DNA of 60,690 bases, from assembly GCA_052038215.1 (NCBI GenBank), contig JBQGBZ010000063.1, positions 1 through 60,690 on the forward strand, in the 5' to 3' direction. Both the position numbers and the translations under genes were made by a program. Each line of letters starts with the position of its first letter. The first letter of the stretch is position 1. Source of the DNA: Nitrososphaera sp. (lineage in GTDB: Archaea; Thermoproteota; Nitrososphaeria; Nitrososphaerales; Nitrososphaeraceae). Shown here piece after piece: positions 32,578 through 43,250 of the stretch. A model generated the notes under the pieces. It did not search any database and was not told where the DNA came from. It saw only the letters and a list, made by a program, of their open reading frames with translations.

Positions 32578-33606
32578 TTGGCAAGGTATAGAATTTCCCT
32601 CATCAAAGGAGATGGCATTGGACCAGAGCAAGCGGCAGCAGCAAAAAAGATCCTTGAAACAATAAATGACAACTCCCATACAAAATTTGACATTCAAGAA
32701 GTCGAAGCTGGCGATAGTGCACTTGCCAAGTTTGGAAAAGCATTGCCAGAATCAGCACTAGATATTATGACGAAGTCGCAGGTCTGCCTGAAGGGGCCAG
32801 TTGGTGAGACTGCAGCCGATGTTATAATTGTTCTTCGCAGGATGTTTGACCTTTATGCAAACATCAGGCCAGCCAAGTCATATCCGAACATTCCAAGCCT
32901 CTCAAGCAACGTCGACCTTGTAACAGTGAGAGAAAATACAGAAGATGTATACCTTGGATGGGAGTTCAACACAGACGAAAAGACAGTTGTAGCGCTGAGA
33001 GTTACATCAGAGCGCGCCAGTAGAAGGATTGCGGAACATGCCTTTAAGATAGCGATGAGACGCAACAACAAGCATAGAGTAGTCGCAGTACACAAGGCCA
33101 ATGTCCTACGCAAAGGGGATGGGTTATTTTCTGCTGTGTGTAGGTCAGTTGCCAATAACTATCCAAAGATACAGTATAGCGAATTGTATGTTGATGCAGC
33201 GTCAATGAACTTAATCCGCAATCCGGAGGAATTTGATGTTATTGTTACCACAAACTTGTTTGGGGACATATTGTCTGATGAAGCCGCTCAGGTGGTAGGG
33301 GGGCTTGGCATGGGACCGGCTGCAAACATTGGAGACAAGTTTGCGCTCTTTGAACCAGTGCATGGAGCTGCATTTGACATTGCAGGAAAGAATGTTGCCA
33401 ACCCATCATCTATCCTTCTTTCTGCCAAGATGATGCTCGAATGGCTCTCAGATAAATATGACGACAAGAATGTAATGGCAGAAGCTAGACGGATAGAAGA
33501 TTCCATTGTCAGTATGCTCAAGCAGGATCAAAAGACAAAGGATATAGGCGGCAACCTTTCTACTACTGAATTTGCAGCGCTTGTTGCAGAGGGGATGTAT
33601 AACTAA
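32578..33606 (+). CDS. leuB: 3-isopropylmalate dehydrogenase family
   Basis: GDGIGPE, RENTE, HKANV, NLFGDILSD, EPVHGAAFDIAG. Confidence 0.88.
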   Translation: MARYRISLIKGDGIGPEQAAAAKKILETINDNSHTKFDIQEVEAGDSALAKFGKALPESALDIMTKSQVCLKGPVGETAADVIIVLRRMFDLYANIRPAKSYPNIPSLSSNVDLVTVRENTEDVYLGWEFNTDEKTVVALRVTSERASRRIAEHAFKIAMRRNNKHRVVAVHKANVLRKGDGLFSAVCRSVANNYPKIQYSELYVDAASMNLIRNPEEFDVIVTTNLFGDILSDEAAQVVGGLGMGPAANIGDKFALFEPVHGAAFDIAGKNVANPSSILLSAKMMLEWLSDKYDDKNVMAEARRIEDSIVSMLKQDQKTKDIGGNLSTTEFAALVAEGMYN

Positions 33607-33943
33607 TCTCTCGATTCAAACCTTCTAGCCGCTACAACCCTGACGCCAGCAGATAGACTAGTAATTGGGAGTTACAATATTGTCAATATTCATCCAATGC
33701 TTATGTAATAACAACTTCAGTACGGCTAACTCTGCAATATAGATATCACAATGAGGACTTCAGAGTTCAGAAATCAAGCAAGTAATTTAATCGATTCAAG
33801 AAGATGTTGCTCAGAGATGATACATTAGTATAATGCTGACGTAACTAGCACAGCCTATTGCTATCAGCAGTTTTATCTCCCTGACGACTAAAATATCAAA
33901 TATTTGGGTTTTTTAGAGAAATATCCCCGGAGGCTTCTTCCCA

Positions 33944-34333
33944 TTAAGAGCCTCTAGGCGCCCTTTTTTGCCACGCCATAAACATGAATATGAAAGGAAT
34001 AGTCATGACAGCAGTCGCTATCAAGACAGGCTGGAATGCACTTGGATTGACATCTATACCAGCGAGCTGCATGAAAGGCAGAGGGAATACAGTGAATAGC
34101 CAGAAAGCCACAATGATTCCTATTAGGTAGTAGTTCCTCTTCAAAAGAGTAGCGAATCCAAGCTTAACTATTTTTTTCCTGTCGCAGCTGATGCATTTAG
34201 TAGTATAGCCTGTTATGTCTGTTGGAACAGTGCATGATGTACATATTCTGCTTTGACAAAAGTAGCATTTTCTCTCAGCAAACCGCGAGCCACAAATGAC
34301 ACAGCGCTGTTGTTGTTGTTGTTGGTCTGCCAT
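33944..34333 (-). CDS. Cys-rich zinc-finger protein with two C-terminal TM helices
   Basis: CVIC..CYFC..ICTSC..CISC followed by two hydrophobic segments; start placed at MADQQQQ. Confidence 0.75.
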   Translation of the reverse strand: MADQQQQQQRCVICGSRFAERKCYFCQSRICTSCTVPTDITGYTTKCISCDRKKIVKLGFATLLKRNYYLIGIIVAFWLFTVFPLPFMQLAGIDVNPSAFQPVLIATAVMTIPFIFMFMAWQKRAPRGS

Positions 34334-34418
34334 TGTGCAACGATACATTACCATGATATTTCCAACAATATTACTGTATCCTGTGTAAAGCAAAATTTAA
34401 ATTTGCTAATCTTGACAG

Positions 34419-35699
34419 TTGGTAAGGGTTCAAAAAATTCCTACACTTAAACAGACATACACAGGATATGCTGCGAAGCTAATGCTAGAAGATGACACTG
34501 TTTTTGATGGGATCGGCTTTGGTTATCCATCGGCAATAGCCGGTGAAGTGGTGTTCAATACGGGTATGGTCGGTTATACTGAAACTCTGACGGATCCTTC
34601 TTACAGGGGCCAGATATTGTGTCTTACATATCCGCTTGTGGGTAATTATGGCGTCCCAAGTTATGACATAAAGGACGAACATGGTCTGCCCAAATTCTTT
34701 GAATCAGACAGAATCCAGGTCAAAGGCCTGCTTATTCACGATCTTTCTGACATTGCAAGTCACTGGAGCTGCATAAAGACACTCGATCAATGGCTTTATG
34801 AAGAAAAGGTGCCAGGGATCTATAATATCGACACAAGGGAGCTGACTAAAAAGCTAAGAGAGCACGGCGTTATGATGGGCGCAATTGTTGTGTCTGAAAA
34901 TACTATTAATCAATCTCGCCTGAGAAAGATGCTTGCAAATGCTAAGTATGAGGGATTAAACTTTATGTCAGAGGTTTCGACAAAGCGGGTTCAAGAATAT
35001 GGTGACAAGAGTAAGGACTGCGTCGTGGTGCTTGACACAGGCGTGAAATATAGTATCATACGCAATATCATGCGGACGGGATATAGGGTTATCCAGCTGC
35101 CCTGGCATGCAACGTATGAGCAAATAATGTCATATAACCCAAGAGGGGTAGTGATAAGCAATGGTCCAGGCGACCCCAAGGTCTGCACTAGCACAATTAA
35201 GACTGTTTCTAAGCTCATCAACACATCTACTCCGACTCTAGGCATCTGTTTGGGCAACCAGATCCTTGCGCTTGCGGGTGGCGCAAACACTTACAAGTTG
35301 AGGTTCGGTCACAGAGGTCAGAATAAGCCATGCTTGAATAAGCATAACAACCAAGTATACGTAACTAGCCAGAACCATGGCTACGGAATTGACCCAAAGA
35401 GCCTCTCCAATACAGGCTTTAAAGTTTGGTTCTCAAATGCTGACGACAATACTGTTGAAGGGCTTGAGCACAAGAACAAACCGATAATTGCGGTCCAGTT
35501 TCATCCTGAAGCATCACCGGGTCCCTATGATTGTATGTTTGTGTTTGACAGGTTTAGGGAAATTATTGCCACAGACATGAGAGATAGAACAGACGCAATA
35601 GAAGCTGCGGAGCAGCAGCCTGTGAAAAGTACAACAACATCATTGAAAAAATTTGTAGCGAATAAAAAAATAGGGGGGGGAAAGATCGGCAAGAAATGA
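34419..35699 (+). CDS. carA: Carbamoyl-phosphate synthase small subunit
   Basis: GEVVFNTGMVGY, TDPSY.GQ, SNGPGDP, GICLG.Q, QFHPEA. Confidence 0.97.
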   Translation: MVRVQKIPTLKQTYTGYAAKLMLEDDTVFDGIGFGYPSAIAGEVVFNTGMVGYTETLTDPSYRGQILCLTYPLVGNYGVPSYDIKDEHGLPKFFESDRIQVKGLLIHDLSDIASHWSCIKTLDQWLYEEKVPGIYNIDTRELTKKLREHGVMMGAIVVSENTINQSRLRKMLANAKYEGLNFMSEVSTKRVQEYGDKSKDCVVVLDTGVKYSIIRNIMRTGYRVIQLPWHATYEQIMSYNPRGVVISNGPGDPKVCTSTIKTVSKLINTSTPTLGICLGNQILALAGGANTYKLRFGHRGQNKPCLNKHNNQVYVTSQNHGYGIDPKSLSNTGFKVWFSNADDNTVEGLEHKNKPIIAVQFHPEASPGPYDCMFVFDRFREIIATDMRDRTDAIEAAEQQPVKSTTTSLKKFVANKKIGGGKIGKK

Positions 35700-38600
35700 A
35701 ACAATAAAGAAAGTTCTCGTTCTCGGAAGCGGGGCAATCAAGATTGGAGAGGCGGGCGAAAGCCAGCAATAATAACTGGCCGCAAATTCGACTACTCCGG
35801 TTCCCAATGCCTCAAGGCACTCGCTGAGGAAGAAATAAAGAGTATTCTAATAAATCCTAACATTGCGACGATTCAGACCGACACTCGTTTTGCAGATAAA
35901 GTATACCCTATTCCAATTAACACAAGCTACGTTGAAAGAGTTATCGAGGCAGAGCGGCCTGATTCAATAATGTTGGGGTTTGGAGGTCAGACTGCCCTAA
36001 ACTGTGGTGTCTCACTTTATGAGCAAGGCATCTTACAAAAATATAACATAAGGGTTCTTGGCACCCCTATCAAGGGTATCAACATCACTGAAGACAGACA
36101 ACGGTTCAAGGAAGCTATGATAAAGAGCGACGTGCCAGTGCTACAGAGTTTTGCGGTCAATTCACTGCAAGAAGCTTTCAGGGCAGCCAAAGACATTGGC
36201 TACCCAGTCATCATTAGGGTAGCGTACACGTTGGGAGGTAGGGGTGGAGGTGTTGCACACAATGAATATGAACTACAGGAAATTGTGCAGAGGGGTCTTA
36301 ACCTCAGCATGGTACATCAAGTTTTGATAGAGCGCTATGTCGGGCACTGGAAGCAAATTGAATACGAAGTTATGCGTGATTACATTGGGAACAGTGTGAT
36401 TGTATGCAATATGGAAAATGTACTTGCAATGCGTGTTCACACTGGCGATAACATAGTCATTGCGCCATCTCAGACCCTCAATAACTATGAGTATCACATG
36501 CTGCGCTCAGCTGCCATCAGGGGAACCAGCTACTGCGACATTGTTGGAGAGTGCAACATCCAGTTTTGCCTTGACCCTACATCAGAACAGTTCGCTGCTA
36601 TCGAAATAAATGCAAGGCTATCTCGATCATCGGCCCTTGCAAGTAAGGCAACCGGTTACCCTCTTGCGTACATGGCGGCCAAGATTGCCCTAGGGTATTC
36701 ATTGCCAGAACTCATTAACAAGATCACCAAAGTTACGACGGCATGCTTTGAGCCATCACTTGATTATGTTGTACTCAAAATGCCACGATGGGATTTTTCG
36801 AAGTTTGAACTTGTTAAGCGTAAGCTTGGTACCACAATGAAGTCGGTTGGCGAAGTAATGGCTATTGGCAGAACCTTTGAAGAAGTGGTGCAAAAGGCGA
36901 TTAGGATGTGTGACATAGGCAAAGACGGCCTTGTCACAAATTCAAATTCAAATCTGGCACATCAGTCCAAAGCAGAAGATGTTGAGAGGATCGAGCAGGC
37001 GCTTATACATCCAACAGACGAGATCATATTTGCACTAGTCGAGTCCATAAAGGCAGGATTGACTATCGCACGCATCAATCAGTTGTCAGGAATCGATCCA
37101 TGGTTTTTGCTCAAAATAAAAAATATAGTCGATATGGAAGATGAGATCGGACGTAAATCCAATAGCTTTGATGAGCAGCTCATAAAGAAGGCAAAAAAAA
37201 TGGGATTTTCAGACAAACAGCTTGCCCGCTGTCTCAATCTTGAAGAAATGCAAGTTCGTAATCTGCGACAGAAATTTAACATCAGGCCAGTCGTAAAGCA
37301 GATAGACACTTTGGCTGCTGAATGGCCAGCCAAGACTAACTACCTCTATTTGTCCTACGGAGGTGAGACTGACGATATCAGAGTAAAGGACAGCAACAGG
37401 AGTAGGATGATAGTGCTTGGCGCTGGCCCATACAGGATCGGAAGTAGCGTCGAATTTGACTGGGGAACTGTCAACACAGTTTGGGCCCTCAAAGAAAATG
37501 GTGTCAAGGAAATTTCAGTTATCAATTGCAACCCGGAAACTGTCTCAACTGACTATGATATTTGCGACAGGCTTTACTTCGAAGAGTTGACACTAGAACG
37601 TGTGCTAGACATCTGTGAGAAAGAAAGGCCAACAGGAGTAGTCACATGTGTTGGAGGTCAGACTGCAAACAACCTAACACCCAAGTTGGCAAAATGCGGT
37701 ATCAATATTGTCGGCACGAGTAGCGAAAATGTTGATAAAGCCGAAGACAGGTCCAAGTTTGGACAGCTGCTTGATTCACTCAAGATAAAGCAGCCAGCAT
37801 GGAGAAAATTCACATCACTTGCTGAAGCTAAGGAATTTGCGGACACTGTGGGTTATCCAGTGCTTGTCAGACCATCCTATGTACTTTCAGGCGCAGCAAT
37901 GAAGGTAGTATGGGGCGAGCAGCAGCTTGAGGGATTTTTAACTGACGCAACAAACATCAGCCCTGATCATCCAGTCGTTATCAGTAAGTTTCTCCAGGAT
38001 GCTGCAGAAGTCGAAGTAGATGCAGTGTCAGACAGCAACGAAGTTATCATTGGCTCTATTATCGAGCACATTGACAATGCCGGTGTCCATTCAGGCGACG
38101 CAATGATGAGTATACCCCCTTGGAGGCTTGACAGGAAGACAATTGACACAATCACAGACTACAGCGTCAAGATAGGAAAGGCCCTTAAAGTCAAAGGTCC
38201 TTTTAATATTCAGTACCTCATTAAGGATGAAGAAGTGCTTGTAATAGAGGCAAATGTTAGGGCATCTCGCTCGATGCCTTTTGTATCCAAGTTTGTGGGC
38301 TATAACATCATCAACCTTGCTGCAAAAGCAATGATTGGTAAACAGCTTCCGCCCACTGCCAGAGACCGTTGGCTCAAGGCTACAGGTTTTGGAATCAAAG
38401 TGCCTCAGTTCTCATTCATGCAGCTTGAAGGTTCAGATGTTGTGCTTGGAGTAGAGATGCAGTCAACTGGCGAAGTTGCATGCTTTGGCAATAGTTTCTA
38501 TGATGCATTATCTAAAGCGTACATGGCAGCCGGCTATTCTCTGCCACTTTCAGGATCGGCACTAATAACCGTGGGGGGACAAAAGAACAAGGAGAAATTA

Positions 38601-38981
38601 CTGCCTATAATATCGCTCATTACCTCGATGAACTATCGGATTATGGCTACCGAGCATACAGCAGAATTCATAGAAAATAATAATTTTAAGGACACACAAC
38701 TCGTCTATAAGATAAGTGAACCGGATCGCACGCCCAATATTGCGGATCTACTGTACGAACGTAAGATCAACTTTATCATAAACATTCCAGCCACATCTAC
38801 GATCGAAAAGTATGTAGGCATGTTATATGATGAGTACCAAATAAGAAGAAAAGCAGTTGAAATGGGCATACCCGTTTTAACAACATTTGAAGCAGCAAGT
38901 TCGTTTATCAAGACACTCCAATGGCTCCGTGATAATACCCCTACGGTGGTGCCGCTTAAAAACTACGCCAATTTGGAATAA
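35686..38981 (+). CDS. carB: Carbamoyl-phosphate synthase large subunit; join(35686..35760,35787..38981), about 1089 aa
   Basis: The N-terminus xARNETIKKVLVLGSGAIKIGEAGE lies in a different frame from FDYSGSQCLKAL...; the ORF-track 1003-aa ORF is N-terminally truncated; the expected start position reads TCG. Confidence 0.92.
35761..35786 (+). other. Candidate bulge-helix-bulge mRNA intron (26 nt) in carB
   Basis: AGCCAGCAATAATAACTGGCCGCAAA sits between GAA and TTC codons; GCCAG/CTGGC stem; in-frame TAA TAA; removal restores the frame and the GEFDYSG motif. Confidence 0.75.
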
Positions 38982-41003: not shown

Positions 41004-41363
41004 ACTTCTTCACACTTTTTATACGCTGATCGGGCAAATAAGTTAGCCGTGCAGTCTAAAGTGGAATTCATAGTAAGCTCAGGTAGTGTCAAGCAGATGT
41101 TGTTTCTGCCAAGTGGTAAAAAGTTATGGATTGTTATAGGGAGAGACAATGAATACTGGACAGATCCAGAACTTCGCTTTTGCTCATGCAATGACTTCTA
41201 TTTTAATACATTATCACGAGGGCAAGATTGCTATCATCTAAAGAGCGTCATAAAAGCTATAGAACAAAGAGCATTCACAATCATAGAGTTCGATGACAGT
41301 GAATATATGGGCTTATTAAAGGCAATCATAGATGATAACATAATCGTCCTAAGCCGTACTTGA
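40977..41363 (+). CDS. SWIM zinc-finger protein
   Basis: FCSCNDF......CYHL SWIM motif; start uncertain. Confidence 0.82.
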   Translation: MWVNWSYLHTSSHFLYADRANKLAVQSKVEFIVSSGSVKQMLFLPSGKKLWIVIGRDNEYWTDPELRFCSCNDFYFNTLSRGQDCYHLKSVIKAIEQRAFTIIEFDDSEYMGLLKAIIDDNIIVLSRT

Positions 41364-41864
41364 TACTTGGGTACTAGTAGCAGTTGGCTGCGTGGTATCA
41401 GACGGTTCTTGCTGATTCGGATGCACTTCGGGCTTTTCTAAGGTGGTCTTTGCTTCGCCACCCTTTCTTCCAATGGTACTGTAGTACTCTGCTCCGCGCT
41501 CCTGTTTGACAGTCTCGCCACCCCGCTTGCCTATCTCACTGTAAAATTCTGCACCATAACGCTCCTTGACTGCCCCACCACCCTTTTCTCCTATTTCTCG
41601 GTAAAATTCTGCACCATAACGCTCCTTAACGACCTCGCCCCCTCGTCTTCCAGCCTCGCTTAAGCCTTCTCTATCATTTGCTCGCGCTTCTCCACCTGCC
41701 TTGGCGACCCTTAGTCTGGTTTCCGAATTTGCCGCAGCAAGGCCCCTTTTTTGGTGTGGTGCGATGCCTCCTTTACGTGCTACTCTTTGTCTCGTCTCTT
41801 CGTTGGCAGACGCAAGTCCTCTTCGAGCGCGCCCTCTATCAGATGCAGCCTGGTCTGGGCCCAT
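41349..41864 (-). CDS. KGG-repeat general stress protein (GsiB/Em/LEA_5-like)
   Basis: Repeats of RGLA.A..ETR.RVA.KGG and G.EFY.EIG.KGG; start placed at MGPDQ (41864). Confidence 0.88.
   Translation of the reverse strand: MGPDQAASDRGRARRGLASANEETRQRVARKGGIAPHQKRGLAAANSETRLRVAKAGGEARANDREGLSEAGRRGGEVVKERYGAEFYREIGEKGGGAVKERYGAEFYSEIGKRGGETVKQERGAEYYSTIGRKGGEAKTTLEKPEVHPNQQEPSDTTQPTATSTQVSSTA
41460..41650 (-). repeat. About three imperfect 60-nt coding tandem repeats
   Basis: gtaaaattctgcaccataacgctcctt recurs at 60-nt spacing and encodes the 20-aa KGG units. Confidence 0.85.
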
Positions 41865-41960
41865 GCACAGTAGACACGCATATCGCTTAAAAGGGGAAAC
41901 GAAAAAAGTAAGAGAATCATAATCAAACAGTTTATTAGCCGAATATCTTTTGGCATCGTT

Positions 41961-43250
41961 GTGACCTCCTCTGATAATGTTCTCATGGTTGGTTTTGGTG
42001 GTAGAGAGCACGCTATCGGTTGGAAGATTTCACAGAGCAAGCATGTGGGAAAGATCTTTTTTGCTCCAGGCAATGGAGGTACATCTGAAAACATAGATAT
42101 CAAGCATAATGATATCGATAAATTGTTATCATTTGCAAAGCGTCAGAGTAACCTGTTGACGATTGTCGGTCCTGAAGAGCCGCTGTCACTCGGAATCGTT
42201 GATGCCTTTGAAAAAGAAGGTCTGCGTATTTTCGGGCCCAGGAGAGAGCCAGCTAGGCTCGAAACAAGCAAGGCTTTTGCGAAAGAGTTCATGCGCGATA
42301 TAGGCATCAGAACTCCTAAATTTGAAATATTCACTGACCCGGAAAAGGCCAAAGATTATGTCGTTAAGCAGAGCGGACACTTAGTAATCAAGGCAAATGG
42401 TCTTGCAGCAGGCAAAGGTGTAGTTGTGTGTGATAGTACCGATCAAGCTATTGCAGCTATTGAGAACATGCTCATCAAAAATGAGTTTGGAGCTGCCGGC
42501 ACTAAAGTAGTCATTGAAGAGCGCCTTTCTGGTGAAGAGGTATCAATTATTGCGCTTTGCGATGGCAAAACTGTAACGCCTCTGGTGCCAAGCCAAGATC
42601 ACAAGCGTATATTTGATGACGATAGAGGTCCCAACACTGGCGGCATGGGAGCGTATTCTCCAGCGCCAGTAATTGATAGCGACCTTCATGAAGAAATAGT
42701 AAAAGACGTAATGGAACCAGTAGCGGTTGCAATAAAGAATCGTGGCACTCTGTTCAAGGGCTTCCTCTATGCTGGCATAATGCTTGATGAAACAACGAGA
42801 AAGCCCTATGTGCTTGAATTCAACGCAAGAATGGGCGATCCAGAGTGCCAGCCAATAATGATGAGGATGAAATCTGACCTTTATGAATACATTGATGCTG
42901 CAGTGGATGAGAGACTCGAGTTAATGCCCCAGATAGAATGGAGAGATCAGACCGCTGTGTGTGTGGTAATGGCTGCAAGAGGATACCCGGGTAGTTATGA
43001 AAAAGGCAAAGTCATAGAGGGTCTTAACTCTGACTTTGGGCCGCAAGTCATGGTTTTCCATGCAGGTACAGCTAGGGATTCGCAGGGCAGGATTGTGACT
43101 AATGGCGGGCGAGTATTAGGTGTAACTGCACTTGGAGAAGATGCAACCACTGCAATAGACAACGCATACTCTGCTGTTGGAAAAATACGATGGGGAAAAG
43201 ATGAGCAATATTATAGAAGAGATATTGCAAGAAGGGCAATACGTCACTAA
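41961..43250 (+). CDS. purD: Phosphoribosylamine--glycine ligase
   Basis: GGREHA, APGNGG, GLAAGKGV, QDHKR, GPNTGGMG, EFNARMGDPE. Confidence 0.97.
   Translation: MTSSDNVLMVGFGGREHAIGWKISQSKHVGKIFFAPGNGGTSENIDIKHNDIDKLLSFAKRQSNLLTIVGPEEPLSLGIVDAFEKEGLRIFGPRREPARLETSKAFAKEFMRDIGIRTPKFEIFTDPEKAKDYVVKQSGHLVIKANGLAAGKGVVVCDSTDQAIAAIENMLIKNEFGAAGTKVVIEERLSGEEVSIIALCDGKTVTPLVPSQDHKRIFDDDRGPNTGGMGAYSPAPVIDSDLHEEIVKDVMEPVAVAIKNRGTLFKGFLYAGIMLDETTRKPYVLEFNARMGDPECQPIMMRMKSDLYEYIDAAVDERLELMPQIEWRDQTAVCVVMAARGYPGSYEKGKVIEGLNSDFGPQVMVFHAGTARDSQGRIVTNGGRVLGVTALGEDATTAIDNAYSAVGKIRWGKDEQYYRRDIARRAIRH

What the first reader, a model, noticed from the sequence alone, without database searches (positions are those of the whole stretch)
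35744..35800. Candidate BHB-type mRNA intron in carB (carbamoyl-phosphate synthase large subunit)
Seen in sequence: the conserved CarB N-terminal motif GSG.IKIGEAGE-FDYSG.Q is split by 26 nt (35761-35786) containing in-frame TAA TAA and shifting the frame. The region folds into an intron helix GCCAG(35762-66)/CTGGC(35776-80), a 3-nt bulge AAA(35759-61), a central helix GGCG(35755-58)/CGCA(35781-84; 3 G-C pairs plus one G.A mismatch), a second bulge AAT(35785-87) and distal exon pairing GGAG(35746-49)/CTCC(35795-98). Established: archaeal splicing endonuclease cuts after the second nucleotide of each bulge, heteromeric enzymes accept relaxed BHB motifs, and the classic protein-coding example is cbf5. 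Cutting at these canonical positions removes exactly these 26 nt and gives GGC GAA TTC GAC TAC (GEFDY) and a full-length CarB of about 1089 aa. Inference: an essential arginine/pyrimidine enzyme depends on tRNA-type splicing of its mRNA, possibly as a control point. I know of no described carB intron, but I could not search the literature. Ribosomal bypassing is a weaker alternative because the matching CAA landing codon gives the wrong frame. A competing GGC-GAAA-GCC tetraloop hairpin overlaps the 5' splice site and could act as a switch.
Basis: partly seen in the sequence, partly recalled or inferred. Interest (0 to 1): 0.93.

Follow-up and report, generated by a model that had tools for sequence, protein, structure and literature searches.

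The report
tRNA-type intron splits archaeal carB
The only gene for the large subunit of carbamoyl-phosphate synthase in this Nitrososphaera-like archaeon is broken by a 26-base hairpin that most of its relatives carry at the same spot; the hairpin is very likely cut out of the messenger RNA by the tRNA-splicing enzyme, which would add a core metabolic gene to the very few spliced protein genes known in archaea, and in this genus it always goes with an unusual predicted start codon (TCG or GCG).

Summary
Confirmed. The genome's only carB has a 26-nt insert (35761-35786) between GE and FDY. An insert at this codon boundary occurs in 256 of the 368 order genomes where the site was found. It is 17-38 nt long, in all three frames, with covarying stems. 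Flanking synonymous sites are constrained only in insert-bearing genes, and all 49 distinct frame-preserving inserts carry an in-frame stop. Metatranscriptome contig graphs branch exactly at the predicted cuts, although the spliced arm itself was not listed. An operon-sized metagenome record lacks exactly the intron of a 98%-identical genome. Best reading: a relaxed bulge-helix-bulge intron spliced by heterotetrameric EndA and RtcB, like cbf5. It was probably spread by a homing endonuclease and repeatedly lost. The tetraloop switch is not supported (P≤0.01), and regulation is unproven. The Met1 position is TCG/GCG in 22 of 22 intron-bearing genus members and canonical in 7 of 7 intronless ones. 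Ten paper searches found no carB intron. This scan noted the same intron earlier in 13 other genomes; the start-codon link was not among its notes.

The parts
34437..35699 (+). carA (small subunit). Predicted start is ATT 34437-39 after a GAGGGT/AAGGGT ribosome-binding motif; the ORF finder starts it at TTG 34419. Its stop TGA (35697-99) overlaps carB exon 1.
   Evidence: TIGR01368 over cut-off. ATT or ATA stands at this homologous place in 74 of 76 loci, with or without the intron.
35673..35680 (+). G-run at the place where close relatives have a GGAGG-type Shine-Dalgarno motif, 5 nt before the predicted carB start
   Evidence: Sequence; relatives. Function inferred.
35686..35688 (+). TCG at the position of Met1: predicted non-canonical start codon of carB
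   Evidence: Exon 2 begins at E. coli CarB residue 26, so codon -25 is Met1. No ATG/GTG/TTG lies in the open frame after TAG 35671. TCG/GCG in 22 of 22 intron-bearing genus members, ATG/GTG/TTG in 7 of 7 intronless ones.
35686..35760 (+). carB exon 1 (25 codons, ending ...KIGEAGE)
   Evidence: Translation; weak PF25596 hit at positions 2-20, below cut-off; alignment with relatives.
35731..35736 (+). 5' strand of distal exon-exon helix GGGGCA, pairing with TGCCTC 35808-35813
   Evidence: 94.6% of cells paired in 56 sequences, no two-sided changes. Synonymous sites constrained only in intron-bearing genes. Pair probability 0.3-0.9 depending on context.
35743..35749 (+). 5' strand of outer exon-exon helix ATTGGAG, pairing with CTCCGGT 35795-35801
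   Evidence: 99.3% paired; probability 0.67-0.95; GGA, TAC and TCC codons nearly fixed in intron-bearing genes.
35755..35758 (+). Central helix, exon strand GGCG, pairing with intron CGCA 35781-35784 (3 pairs plus G·A)
   Evidence: Pairs 2-4 form in 101 of 101 distinct sites, pair 1 in 81%. Outside the order the helix is GCGG/CCGC.
35759..35761 (+). 5' bulge AA|A; predicted cut after 35760
   Evidence: RNA contigs of runs X1 and X3 end exactly at 35760.
35761..35786 (+). 26-nt intron: inner helix GCCAG 35762-66 / CTGGC 35776-80, 9-nt loop with in-frame TAA TAA 35770-75
35785..35787 (+). 3' splice site AA|T, in a relaxed bulge/internal loop; predicted cut after 35786
   Evidence: Downstream RNA contigs of X1 and X3 start exactly at 35785, the first base shared by both forms.
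35787..38981 (+). carB exon 2 (1064 codons plus stop, FDYSG... to the MGS domain)
   Evidence: TIGR01369 1389 bits against cut-off 1027; Pfam; only CarB in the assembly.

Best explanation
The 26 bases at 35761-35786 break the only carB and fold with the flanking exons into a relaxed bulge-helix-bulge; they are very likely an intron that the heterotetrameric tRNA splicing endonuclease would cut after 35760 and 35786 and RtcB would ligate, restoring GE|FDY and a predicted 1089-residue CarB that likely starts at TCG 35686. Unspliced mRNA yields only a 28-residue stub ending at the intron's stop, and selection keeps a stop in every frame-preserving intron, so an unspliced message cannot give a CarB with an insert in its conserved motif. 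The intron probably entered as a passenger of a free-standing LAGLIDADG homing endonuclease (inferred), persisted after the nuclease was lost, and has been precisely lost several times. I read it as a tolerated, obligatory processing step rather than a shown switch. The weak start codons (carA AUU, carB UCG with predicted re-initiation after the overlapping carA stop) likely keep ribosome traffic low enough for the hairpin, which begins 45 nt after the start, to fold and be cut.
For: SHOWN.
- Same-site insert in 256 of 401 order genomes searched, 256 of 368 with the site found; lengths 17-38 nt in all three frames.
- Inner helix pairs 1-4 formed in 398 of 404 cells, shuffled mean 322 and maximum 338. 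On 56 gapless 21-nt sites, 97.8% of cells paired with 40 two-sided changes, 0 of 500 shuffles as high, slid controls 24-46%.
- Synonymous sites constrained in 65 intron-bearing versus 45 intronless genes: Gly-2 GGC 63 vs 8, Tyr+3 TAC 65 vs 18, Gly-5 GGA 61 vs 12, Ser+4 TCC 57 vs 7.
- In-frame stop in 49 of 49 distinct 3n inserts versus 50 of 69 others; loop shuffles give 19.0±2.3, maximum 26 of 5000.
- The central helix covaries with the exon: GCGG/CCGC in G548 and G554.
- RNA contigs: in X1 an upstream contig ends at 35760 (depth 7.1), an intron arm spans 35731-35814 (2.8) and a downstream contig starts at 35785 (7.3). X3 shows the same borders 35760, 35731 and 35785. X2 has zero depth over 35750-35776. 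Of 2275 simulated deletions, only the three equivalent 26-nt registers give that arm.
- Record L265 equals G385's locus at 17 mismatches in 1044 nt, with a single 27-nt gap that is exactly the intron in an unambiguous register. Its ends fall 4 nt before the carA start and 184 nt after the carB stop, if colinear.
- Two EndA subunits in 5 of 5 relatives; RtcB in G000.
- A second intron 23 nt upstream in G412, G413 and G415 restores GSGALKIGEAGE only at the canonical cuts.
- LAGLIDADG ORF directly upstream of carB in 3 of 4 distant intron-bearing genomes.
ESTABLISHED: cbf5 pre-mRNA is spliced by EndA (PMC2738675, passages). (αβ)2 and ε2 EndAs cut relaxed motifs (PMC6379350, passages).
INFERRED: enzyme identity, origin by homing, start at TCG, and the traffic argument.
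Against: - No read or contig spanning the spliced junction of this locus was displayed. The joint tables were empty and 7 records were not shown.
- X1-X3 are one study, and RNA libraries can hold DNA.
- Whether L265 is RNA or DNA is not on record, so it may be a very recent genomic loss.
- The catalytic EndA subunit is not in this assembly.
- No homing-endonuclease-like sequence lies near carB in 110 order loci or in G000 (tblastn with three queries, low sensitivity), so the origin is inferred from distant genomes.
- The start-codon link is not obligate: 45 of 118 named intron-bearing loci have ATG or TTG at that place, and 10 of 50 intronless loci are non-canonical. On 8 independent pairs it goes the same way in 5.1 and the other way in 0.4, median sign-test p 0.125.
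- carA keeps AUU/AUA after intron loss, so that weak start is not explained by the intron.
- Kin are not independent in any of the counts.
Confidence: 0.88

Rival explanations
1. The intron is spliced and also serves as a regulated checkpoint. Splicing efficiency, together with the weak UCG/GCG/CUG start, would set CarB output according to arginine, pyrimidine or ammonia status, or to tRNA-splicing load.
For: Both forms appear to coexist in RNA (intron arm 2.8 of about 7.2 in X1). A stop is enforced in all 3n introns. Non-canonical carB starts track the intron in the own genus (22 of 22 vs 0 of 7), in family f13 (22 of 25 vs 1 of 16 at codon -25) and in f14. Both carA and carB have weak starts. 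A negative-regulator role was proposed for the cbf5 intron (PMC2738675, passage).
Against: No alternative fold competes at equilibrium. There is no conserved loop sequence and no Rfam match in 33500-36500. The intron is absent in 112 of 368 genomes. The unspliced arm may be DNA or ordinary precursor. No condition-dependent data were available. This rival adds to the best explanation rather than replacing it.
Confidence: 0.25
2. Translational recoding (ribosome bypass, frameshift or read-through) makes CarB from unspliced mRNA, possibly as a CarA-CarB fusion.
For: The carA stop overlaps exon 1, exon 1 lacks a standard start, and a stop followed by a hairpin resembles recoding signals (recalled).
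Against: Insert lengths fall in all three frames (64, 40 and 41 of 145) with no conserved take-off/landing pair. The carA stop lies in different frames relative to carB among close relatives (56, 64 or 78 nt from the site). In G053 an in-frame stop directly precedes TCG. RNA contigs branch at the splice sites.
Confidence: 0.03
3. TCG is not read as a start but is edited C-to-U to UUG (GCG to GUG, ACG to AUG, CCG to CUG), so that editing licenses translation.
For: The odd codons in the own genus and in family f10 are all N-C-G, one base from N-U-G, at normal spacing from the Shine-Dalgarno motif.
Against: The majority RNA contigs of X1, X2 and X3 cover 35687 with no C>T; all 4, 8 and 4 of their differences are accounted for elsewhere. 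The gapless record L266 keeps TCG. Other lineages use CTG, ATA, ATT or TTT, which editing does not explain. Contigs drop minority variants, so a small edited fraction is not excluded. This rival concerns the start codon only.
Confidence: 0.07
4. Assembly artefact or pseudogene.
For: The assembly is fragmented (433 contigs, 88% complete) and the single-sequence fold z-score is only -1.62.
Against: Same-site insert in 256 genomes, including named complete ones (L073). An independent RNA contig matches 35731-35814 with no difference, and run X15 carries an insert variant in a 2073-nt contig. Exon 2 is intact and is the only carB.
Confidence: 0.01

Closest known systems
cbf5 pre-mRNA intron of Desulfurococcales and Sulfolobales (PMC2738675, passages read; Watanabe 2002 and Yoshinari 2006 seen only as references)
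   Same: A short BHB-like intron (cbf5 16-44 nt; here 17-38 nt) in a conserved motif of a protein-coding gene, linked to hetero-oligomeric EndA, inherited through a clade with secondary losses, and mis-annotated as a frameshift.
   Different: Here the host is a metabolic enzyme gene in Nitrososphaerales. The intron lies between codons, whereas the cbf5 intron splits the catalytic codon, and a stop is enforced in all 3n cases. It recurs in distant archaea, beside a free-standing LAGLIDADG gene in three genomes and with a second intron in three. It goes with non-canonical start codons. cbf5 splicing is experimentally proven; carB splicing is not.
Relaxed BHB (HBh'/bulge-helix-loop) introns of archaeal pre-tRNAs cut by (αβ)2 and ε2 EndA (PMC6379350, PMC12397907, passages)
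   Same: 4-bp central helix, a strict 3-nt bulge on one side, a loop on the other, and cuts after the second unpaired base.
   Different: There is no tRNA body. Exon-exon helices held by synonymous codon choice supply the scaffold, and the substrate is a translated polycistronic mRNA.
BHB intron in the 5' UTR of HVO_1309, Haloferax volcanii (PMC7714728, passages)
   Same: An mRNA substrate of the splicing endonuclease whose removal appears to matter for expression.
   Different: That intron is outside the reading frame. Here the frame is broken and splicing is obligatory.
Archaeal rRNA introns that encode homing endonucleases, and their short deletion derivatives (PMC2738675, PMC3082918, passages)
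   Same: An EndA-spliced element associated with a LAGLIDADG nuclease and patchy among relatives.
   Different: The intron is too short to encode the nuclease. Where present, the nuclease is a separate gene directly upstream of carB, and none was found near carB in the order's loci. The parallel with phage collaborative homing is recalled, not read.

Membership tests
Archaeal BHB-type (EndA-spliced) intron | 4-bp central helix between the two splice sites | tested here: met
   Pairs 2-4 in 101 of 101 distinct sites, pair 1 in 81% (G·A in the window); GCGG/CCGC variant outside the order.
Archaeal BHB-type (EndA-spliced) intron | 3-nt bulge at the 5' site, closed by an intron helix | tested here: met
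   Inner pairs 1-3 formed in 100% and pair 4 in 94% of 101 sites; two-sided changes in 3 of 4 inner pairs.
Strict (canonical) BHB motif | 3-nt bulge at the 3' site, closed by a directly stacked exon helix | tested here: not met
   Adjacent outer pairs formed in 74%, 0% and 0% of sites. Closure is by helices further out.
Relaxed BHB (HBh'/bulge-helix-loop) intron | One strict bulge, central helix, and an internal loop at the other site | tested here: met
   definition from PMC6379350 (passage).
Archaeal BHB-type (EndA-spliced) intron | Cuts after the second bulge base restore the conserved sequence | tested here: met
   GE|FDY restored. The register is unambiguous in L239/L265. The second site gives GSGALKI only at the canonical cuts.
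Archaeal BHB-type (EndA-spliced) intron | Spliced RNA exists in vivo | tested here: inconclusive
   Contig borders in X1 and X3 match the prediction exactly, and L265 lacks exactly the intron. But no junction-spanning record of this locus was displayed, and L265's molecule type is not on record.
Archaeal BHB-type (EndA-spliced) intron | Host encodes a broad-specificity heteromeric EndA and RtcB ligase | tested here: inconclusive
   G000 has the structural subunit (catalytic His position replaced) and two RtcB genes; the catalytic subunit is not in the assembly. Both subunits are present in 5 of 5 relatives.
Archaeal BHB-type (EndA-spliced) intron | Cleavage by EndA and ligation by RtcB; circular excised intron | not testable with these tools
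   Needs in vitro assay, depletion or circular-RNA sequencing.
Homing-endonuclease-mobilised intron | Linked LAGLIDADG gene | tested here: not met
   Not met for this locus: carA lies upstream, and no tblastn hit was found in G000 or 110 order loci. Met in G413, G414 and G415 (PF14528 over cut-off).
Homing-endonuclease-mobilised intron | Nuclease cuts the intronless allele but not the intron-bearing one | not testable with these tools
   Needs a cleavage assay.
Programmed ribosomal bypass or frameshift | Conserved frame change with matched take-off/landing codons or a slippery site | tested here: not met
   Lengths fall in all three frames; the carA/carB frame relation varies.
Group I/II intron or curated RNA family | Match to an Rfam model | tested here: not met
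   0 matches at E≤1 in 33500-36500; the insert is far too short.

The most novel reading that the evidence does not exclude
Ammonia-oxidising archaea throttle carbamoyl-phosphate synthesis at the RNA level with a two-part device: an obligatory tRNA-type splicing step, paired with near-silent start codons (carA AUU; carB UCG, GCG or CUG, re-initiated from carA). This would tie arginine and pyrimidine supply to the tRNA-splicing machinery. It would be a domesticated homing-endonuclease passenger turned regulator, the first regulated metabolic mRNA intron in archaea, and a natural case of UCG/GCG initiation.
Probability: 0.25. Interest if true: 0.92.

Novelty: new member of a known kind. Interest (0 to 1): 0.78.

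Why it matters
A 2020 paper still names cbf5 as the only other BHB intron in an archaeal mRNA besides a 5' UTR case (PMC7714728, passage). A second coding-sequence intron, in a core enzyme and in about 70% of genomes of an order that contains the ammonia oxidisers, would show that mRNA splicing is routine in abundant archaea. It also implies that CarB is likely annotated without its first 25 residues in many genomes.

It makes an old question testable in cultured organisms: are archaeal mRNA introns regulators or passengers? Natural intron-plus and intron-minus sister lineages exist as controls. It also offers two rules new to this system: every frame-preserving intron carries a stop, and the start codon weakens when the intron is present.

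Tried and rejected
- Tetraloop switch: pair probability ≤0.01 in three contexts at two temperatures. Co-transcriptional folding was not modelled.
- Shine-Dalgarno-sequestering hairpin: it appears in the window's fold, but similar energies occur in intronless genus members; dropped.
- C-to-U editing of the start codon: not seen in the majority RNA contigs.
- CarA-CarB frameshift fusion: the frame relation is not conserved.
- Direct display of the spliced junction: both read-laying runs gave empty joint tables. The predicted 58-nt arm has only 30 letters on each side. The X4 loose end before 35785 looks like a joined form but comes from another organism (4 differences in 35 nt) and could be an intronless allele, so it was not used.
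- Other mRNA introns in G000: tblastn of 7734 stop-to-stop frames from the whole of G032 and 349 kb of G312 gave 11 split regions. carB was recovered. The other 10 looked like antisense frames or gene borders on inspection. The 77 gap-with-stop regions were not inspected one by one, and introns shared with the query genomes would be missed.
- Genome-wide start-codon control: none of 65 odd cases among 693 was N-C-G. The set is dominated by shadow frames and did not recover carB, so it is weak.
- A careful tree did not finish; FastTree was used. It is unrooted, 9 short rows were left out, and it cannot formally tell gain from loss.
- Mapping the ends of record L265 failed because the record is not held; its extent is computed from the contig range only.
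- Promoter/terminator scan uses a bacterial consensus and was uninformative.
- Literature: ten searches returned no carB intron. The library lacks most subscription papers, no supplements were read, and the book chapter that PMC2738675 cites for predicted introns (a Sulfolobus chapter) was not seen.
Full report
OBSERVATION. The sequence is as described. carB exon 1 ends ...GGC GAA at 35760. The 26 nt of 35761-35786 contain TAA TAA in frame, and FDYSG resumes at 35787 in another frame. Exon 2 is 1064 open codons and is the only CarB hit in the 1.99-Mb assembly. It passes TIGR01369 from profile position 25 and aligns to E. coli CarB from residue 26. On its own the 76-nt fold is unremarkable (z -1.62). 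A locus sharing both flanking 30-mers with the window, L111, is titled Nitrososphaera sp..

DISTRIBUTION. Of 30 loci from 41 relatives, 25 have an insert at the same codon boundary and 5 do not. A pattern scan of species genomes, which demanded an insert and stopped at 120 rows, returned Nitrosopumilus, Nitrosarchaeum, Nitrosotenuis, Nitrosopelagicus, Cenarchaeum, Nitrosotalea, Nitrosocosmicus and Nitrososphaera records. For a denominator I searched the same 401 order genomes twice. 352 match with a gap of 0-30 nt and 256 with 12-42 nt. Comparing the tables, the site was found in 368 genomes: 256 with the insert and 112 without. In the other 33 it was not found. By family, with insert over site found: own family 125 of 132 (the 7 without are all in the own genus), f13 90 of 138, f10 28 of 41, f4 8 of 8; none in f6, f7, f9, f12, f15, f16, f18 or f19. 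G024 and G407 in these counts are unpublished. Outside the order, 2 of 336 phylum genomes matched; the pattern may not fit all carB genes there. On FastTree CarB trees the label changes 14-15 times, at least 8-9 of them forced by well-supported branches, with intronless genes nested among intron-bearing ones. I read this as repeated precise loss, but the trees are unrooted.

STRUCTURE. Lengths run from 17 to 38 nt, with 64, 40 and 41 of 145 in the three frames. Among 101 distinct sites, central pairs 2-4 and inner pairs 1-3 always form. 398 of 404 inner cells pair, against a shuffled mean of 322. On 56 gapless 21-nt sites the named structure has 97.8% of cells paired and 40 two-sided changes; 0 of 500 shuffles reach this, and slid controls give 24-46%. 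RNAalifold finds essentially the same fold unaided. The two-sided changes lie almost wholly in the inner helix; the exon helices vary on one side only. In G548 and G554 the exon reads GCG GAA and the central helix is GCGG/CCGC, a compensated change across the exon-intron pair. The 3' site is not a strict bulge: the adjacent outer pairs form in 74%, 0% and 0% of sites. The motif is therefore the relaxed form that (αβ)2 EndA accepts (PMC6379350, passages). In the window the central and inner helices have pair probabilities of 0.82-1.0 and the proposed tetraloop hairpin ≤0.01.

SELECTION ON THE RNA. In a hand-picked set of 65 intron-bearing and 45 intronless genes, synonymous sites that make the helices are nearly fixed only in the former. 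The counts are Gly-10 GGG 58 vs 14, Ala-9 GCA 56 vs 12, Gly-5 GGA 61 vs 12, Gly-2 GGC 63 vs 8, Tyr+3 TAC 65 vs 18, Ser+4 TCC 57 vs 7 and Cys+8 TGC 58 vs 16. All 49 distinct inserts whose length is a multiple of three have an in-frame stop, against 50 of 69 others. Shuffling the loops gives 19.0±2.3. Two 21-nt types that lack the loop stop have one in the last codon instead. Unspliced message is thus kept untranslatable. Kin are not independent in these counts.

RNA EVIDENCE. Soil metatranscriptome runs X1-X3 (one study) hold 59-67% of the stretch's words. Only assembled contigs were available. In X1 a contig identical to the window ends at 35760 (depth 7.1), an arm spans 35731-35814 (2.8), and the next contig starts at 35785 (7.3). 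X3 has the borders 35760, 35731 and 35785. X2 has no depth over 35750-35776. X15, whose kind is not on record, runs through with an insert in one 2073-nt contig. A k=31 simulation predicts exactly these borders for a mix of spliced and unspliced molecules, and only 3 of 2275 deletions, the equivalent 26-nt registers, give that arm. All four held loci that share the upstream 30-mer continue with AG, so a strain variant of the intron would branch later. The spliced arm itself was not listed and the joint tables were empty, so this evidence is indirect. Separately, a metagenome scan with the gapless constrained consensus found 2 records. L265 matches G385's locus at 17 mismatches in 1044 nt with one 27-nt gap, exactly the intron, in a register that cannot slide. 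If colinear, the record runs from 4 nt before the carA start to 184 nt after the carB stop, as an operon transcript would. Its molecule type is not on record.

MACHINERY. G000 has one EndA-family gene in which the catalytic His position is replaced, so it is the structural subunit. The catalytic subunit is not in the assembly, but both subunits are in 5 of 5 relatives. G000 has two RtcB genes, and 11 of the 24 tRNA genes called carry flagged introns.

ORIGIN. Four small genomes outside the phylum sample (G412-G415; record titles Methanosarcinales twice, Woesearchaeota, and 'archaeon') have a 17-18 nt intron at the same site. Three of them have a second BHB intron of 29-31 nt, 23 nt upstream, whose canonical cuts restore GSGALKIGEAGE. 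Prompted by earlier scan notes, I tested the upstream ORFs. G413, G414 and G415 have a LAGLIDADG ORF directly before carB (PF14528 over cut-off); G412 has carA. No similar sequence lies in 110 order loci or in G000. Spread by a linked homing endonuclease, later lost in Nitrososphaerales, is the inference. PMC2738675 (passages) suggested a comparable history for cbf5.

START CODONS. Exon 1 has no in-frame ATG, GTG or TTG. The codon homologous to Met1 is TCG (35686), 5 nt after a G-run and 11 nt before the carA stop. In the own genus it is TCG or GCG in 22 of 22 intron-bearing genes (G022 and G024 among them) and ATG, GTG or TTG in 7 of 7 intronless ones. In f13 it is CTG in 19, ATG in 3 and other in 3 of 25 intron-bearing genes, against ATG or TTG in 15 of 16 intronless ones. 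Overall 56 of 69 versus 10 of 50 are non-canonical. Against an obligate link, 45 of 118 named intron-bearing loci have ATG or TTG, f10 keeps N-C-G codons after intron loss, and 8 independent pairs give a median p of 0.125. carA starts at ATT or ATA behind a conserved GAGGGT-type motif in 74 of 76 loci regardless of the intron. So the operon is weakly initiated throughout, and only carB's start tracks the intron. A fusion by frameshift is unlikely because the carA stop frame varies. Editing is not seen in majority RNA contigs. Re-initiation after the overlapping carA stop is the likeliest route; termination-reinitiation in archaea is described in PMC6728339 (search listing and start of abstract only). 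No such note was found in the scan's records or in paper searches.

MECHANISM AND STATUS. Shown: the insert, its conservation, covariation, exon constraint, stop rule, contig borders and codon usage at the start. Inferred: cutting by EndA and joining by RtcB, start at TCG, origin by homing, and the idea that weak initiation protects the hairpin from ribosomes. I put about 0.9 on real splicing and 0.25 on regulation. A screen for further mRNA introns in G000 found only carB, with the limits given under Tried and rejected.

COMPARISON AND NOVELTY. It works like the cbf5 intron and meets the structural tests for a relaxed BHB intron. It fails the strict-BHB test, and enzyme cleavage is untested. 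Passages of PMC2738675 and PMC7714728 name cbf5 as the only confirmed coding-sequence case. Passages of PMC12397907, PMC3082918 and PMC7531240 add none. Ten searches found no carB intron; subscription papers and supplements were not seen. This scan's unchecked notes report the same intron in 13 other genomes and 24 findings on BHB mRNA introns in at least 22 genomes, the listed ones in other genes. They are not counted as evidence. Verdict: a new member of a known but nearly empty class, interest 0.78. The throttle reading is the bolder case, at probability 0.25.

Noticed in passing
window 34426-34439; loci L001-L022, L190-L264: carA has no standard start at its homologous N-terminus. ATT or ATA follows a conserved GAGGGT-type motif in 74 of 76 loci across four families, with or without the carB intron.
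   Followed up: partly
L151, L152, L153 (also L085, L115, L130), 23 nt upstream of the main site: A second BHB intron (29, 31 and 29 nt) in carB inside GSGA-L-KI, leaving a 23-nt mini-exon between two introns.
   Followed up: partly
L152:65-1378(+), L153:1-1437(+), L154:2902-4260(-): Free-standing LAGLIDADG ORFs directly upstream of intron-bearing carB. Two of them are about 57% identical, and one has a C-terminal winged helix.
   Followed up: partly
G414:C31:19886-22791 (L154, L155): This carB has further in-frame stops beyond the intron (open for only 32 codons after the site). These may be more introns or decay.
   Followed up: no
L085 and L115 (G412, G413): The records are titled Methanosarcinales, but the genomes are 1.1-1.5 Mb and G413's EndA is 70% identical to that of the Woesearchaeota-titled G414. 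The titles may be wrong.
   Followed up: partly
G000:C67:11342-12652 and G000:C293:1071-2384: Two full-length RtcB ligase genes in this assembly (contamination estimate 3%).
   Followed up: no
G000:C335:4939-5649 (L162): Only the structural EndA subunit is assembled; the catalytic subunit is missing, while 5 of 5 relatives have both.
   Followed up: yes
L194-L196 versus L226 (genus g66): The intronless CarBs of three g66 genomes group inside an intronless g36 clade, apart from the intron-bearing g66 gene. This may be replacement by transfer; not tested.
   Followed up: no
family f10 loci L172-L176, L207-L214: TCG, ACG or CCG stands 6 nt after GAGGTGA, the spacing at which other families have GTG or ATG, in both intron-bearing and intronless genes.
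   Followed up: partly
L266: A second gapless record with fully constrained flanks and TCG at the start position; the nearest held locus is only 75% identical.
   Followed up: partly
window 35580-35699: CarA has a variable low-complexity C-terminal tail of about 40 residues beyond the family profile, and its stop frame differs among close relatives.
   Followed up: no
window 41349-42011 (-): A 220-aa ORF with repeated KGG/RGG motifs, resembling stress-induced repeat proteins (recalled, not tested).
   Followed up: no
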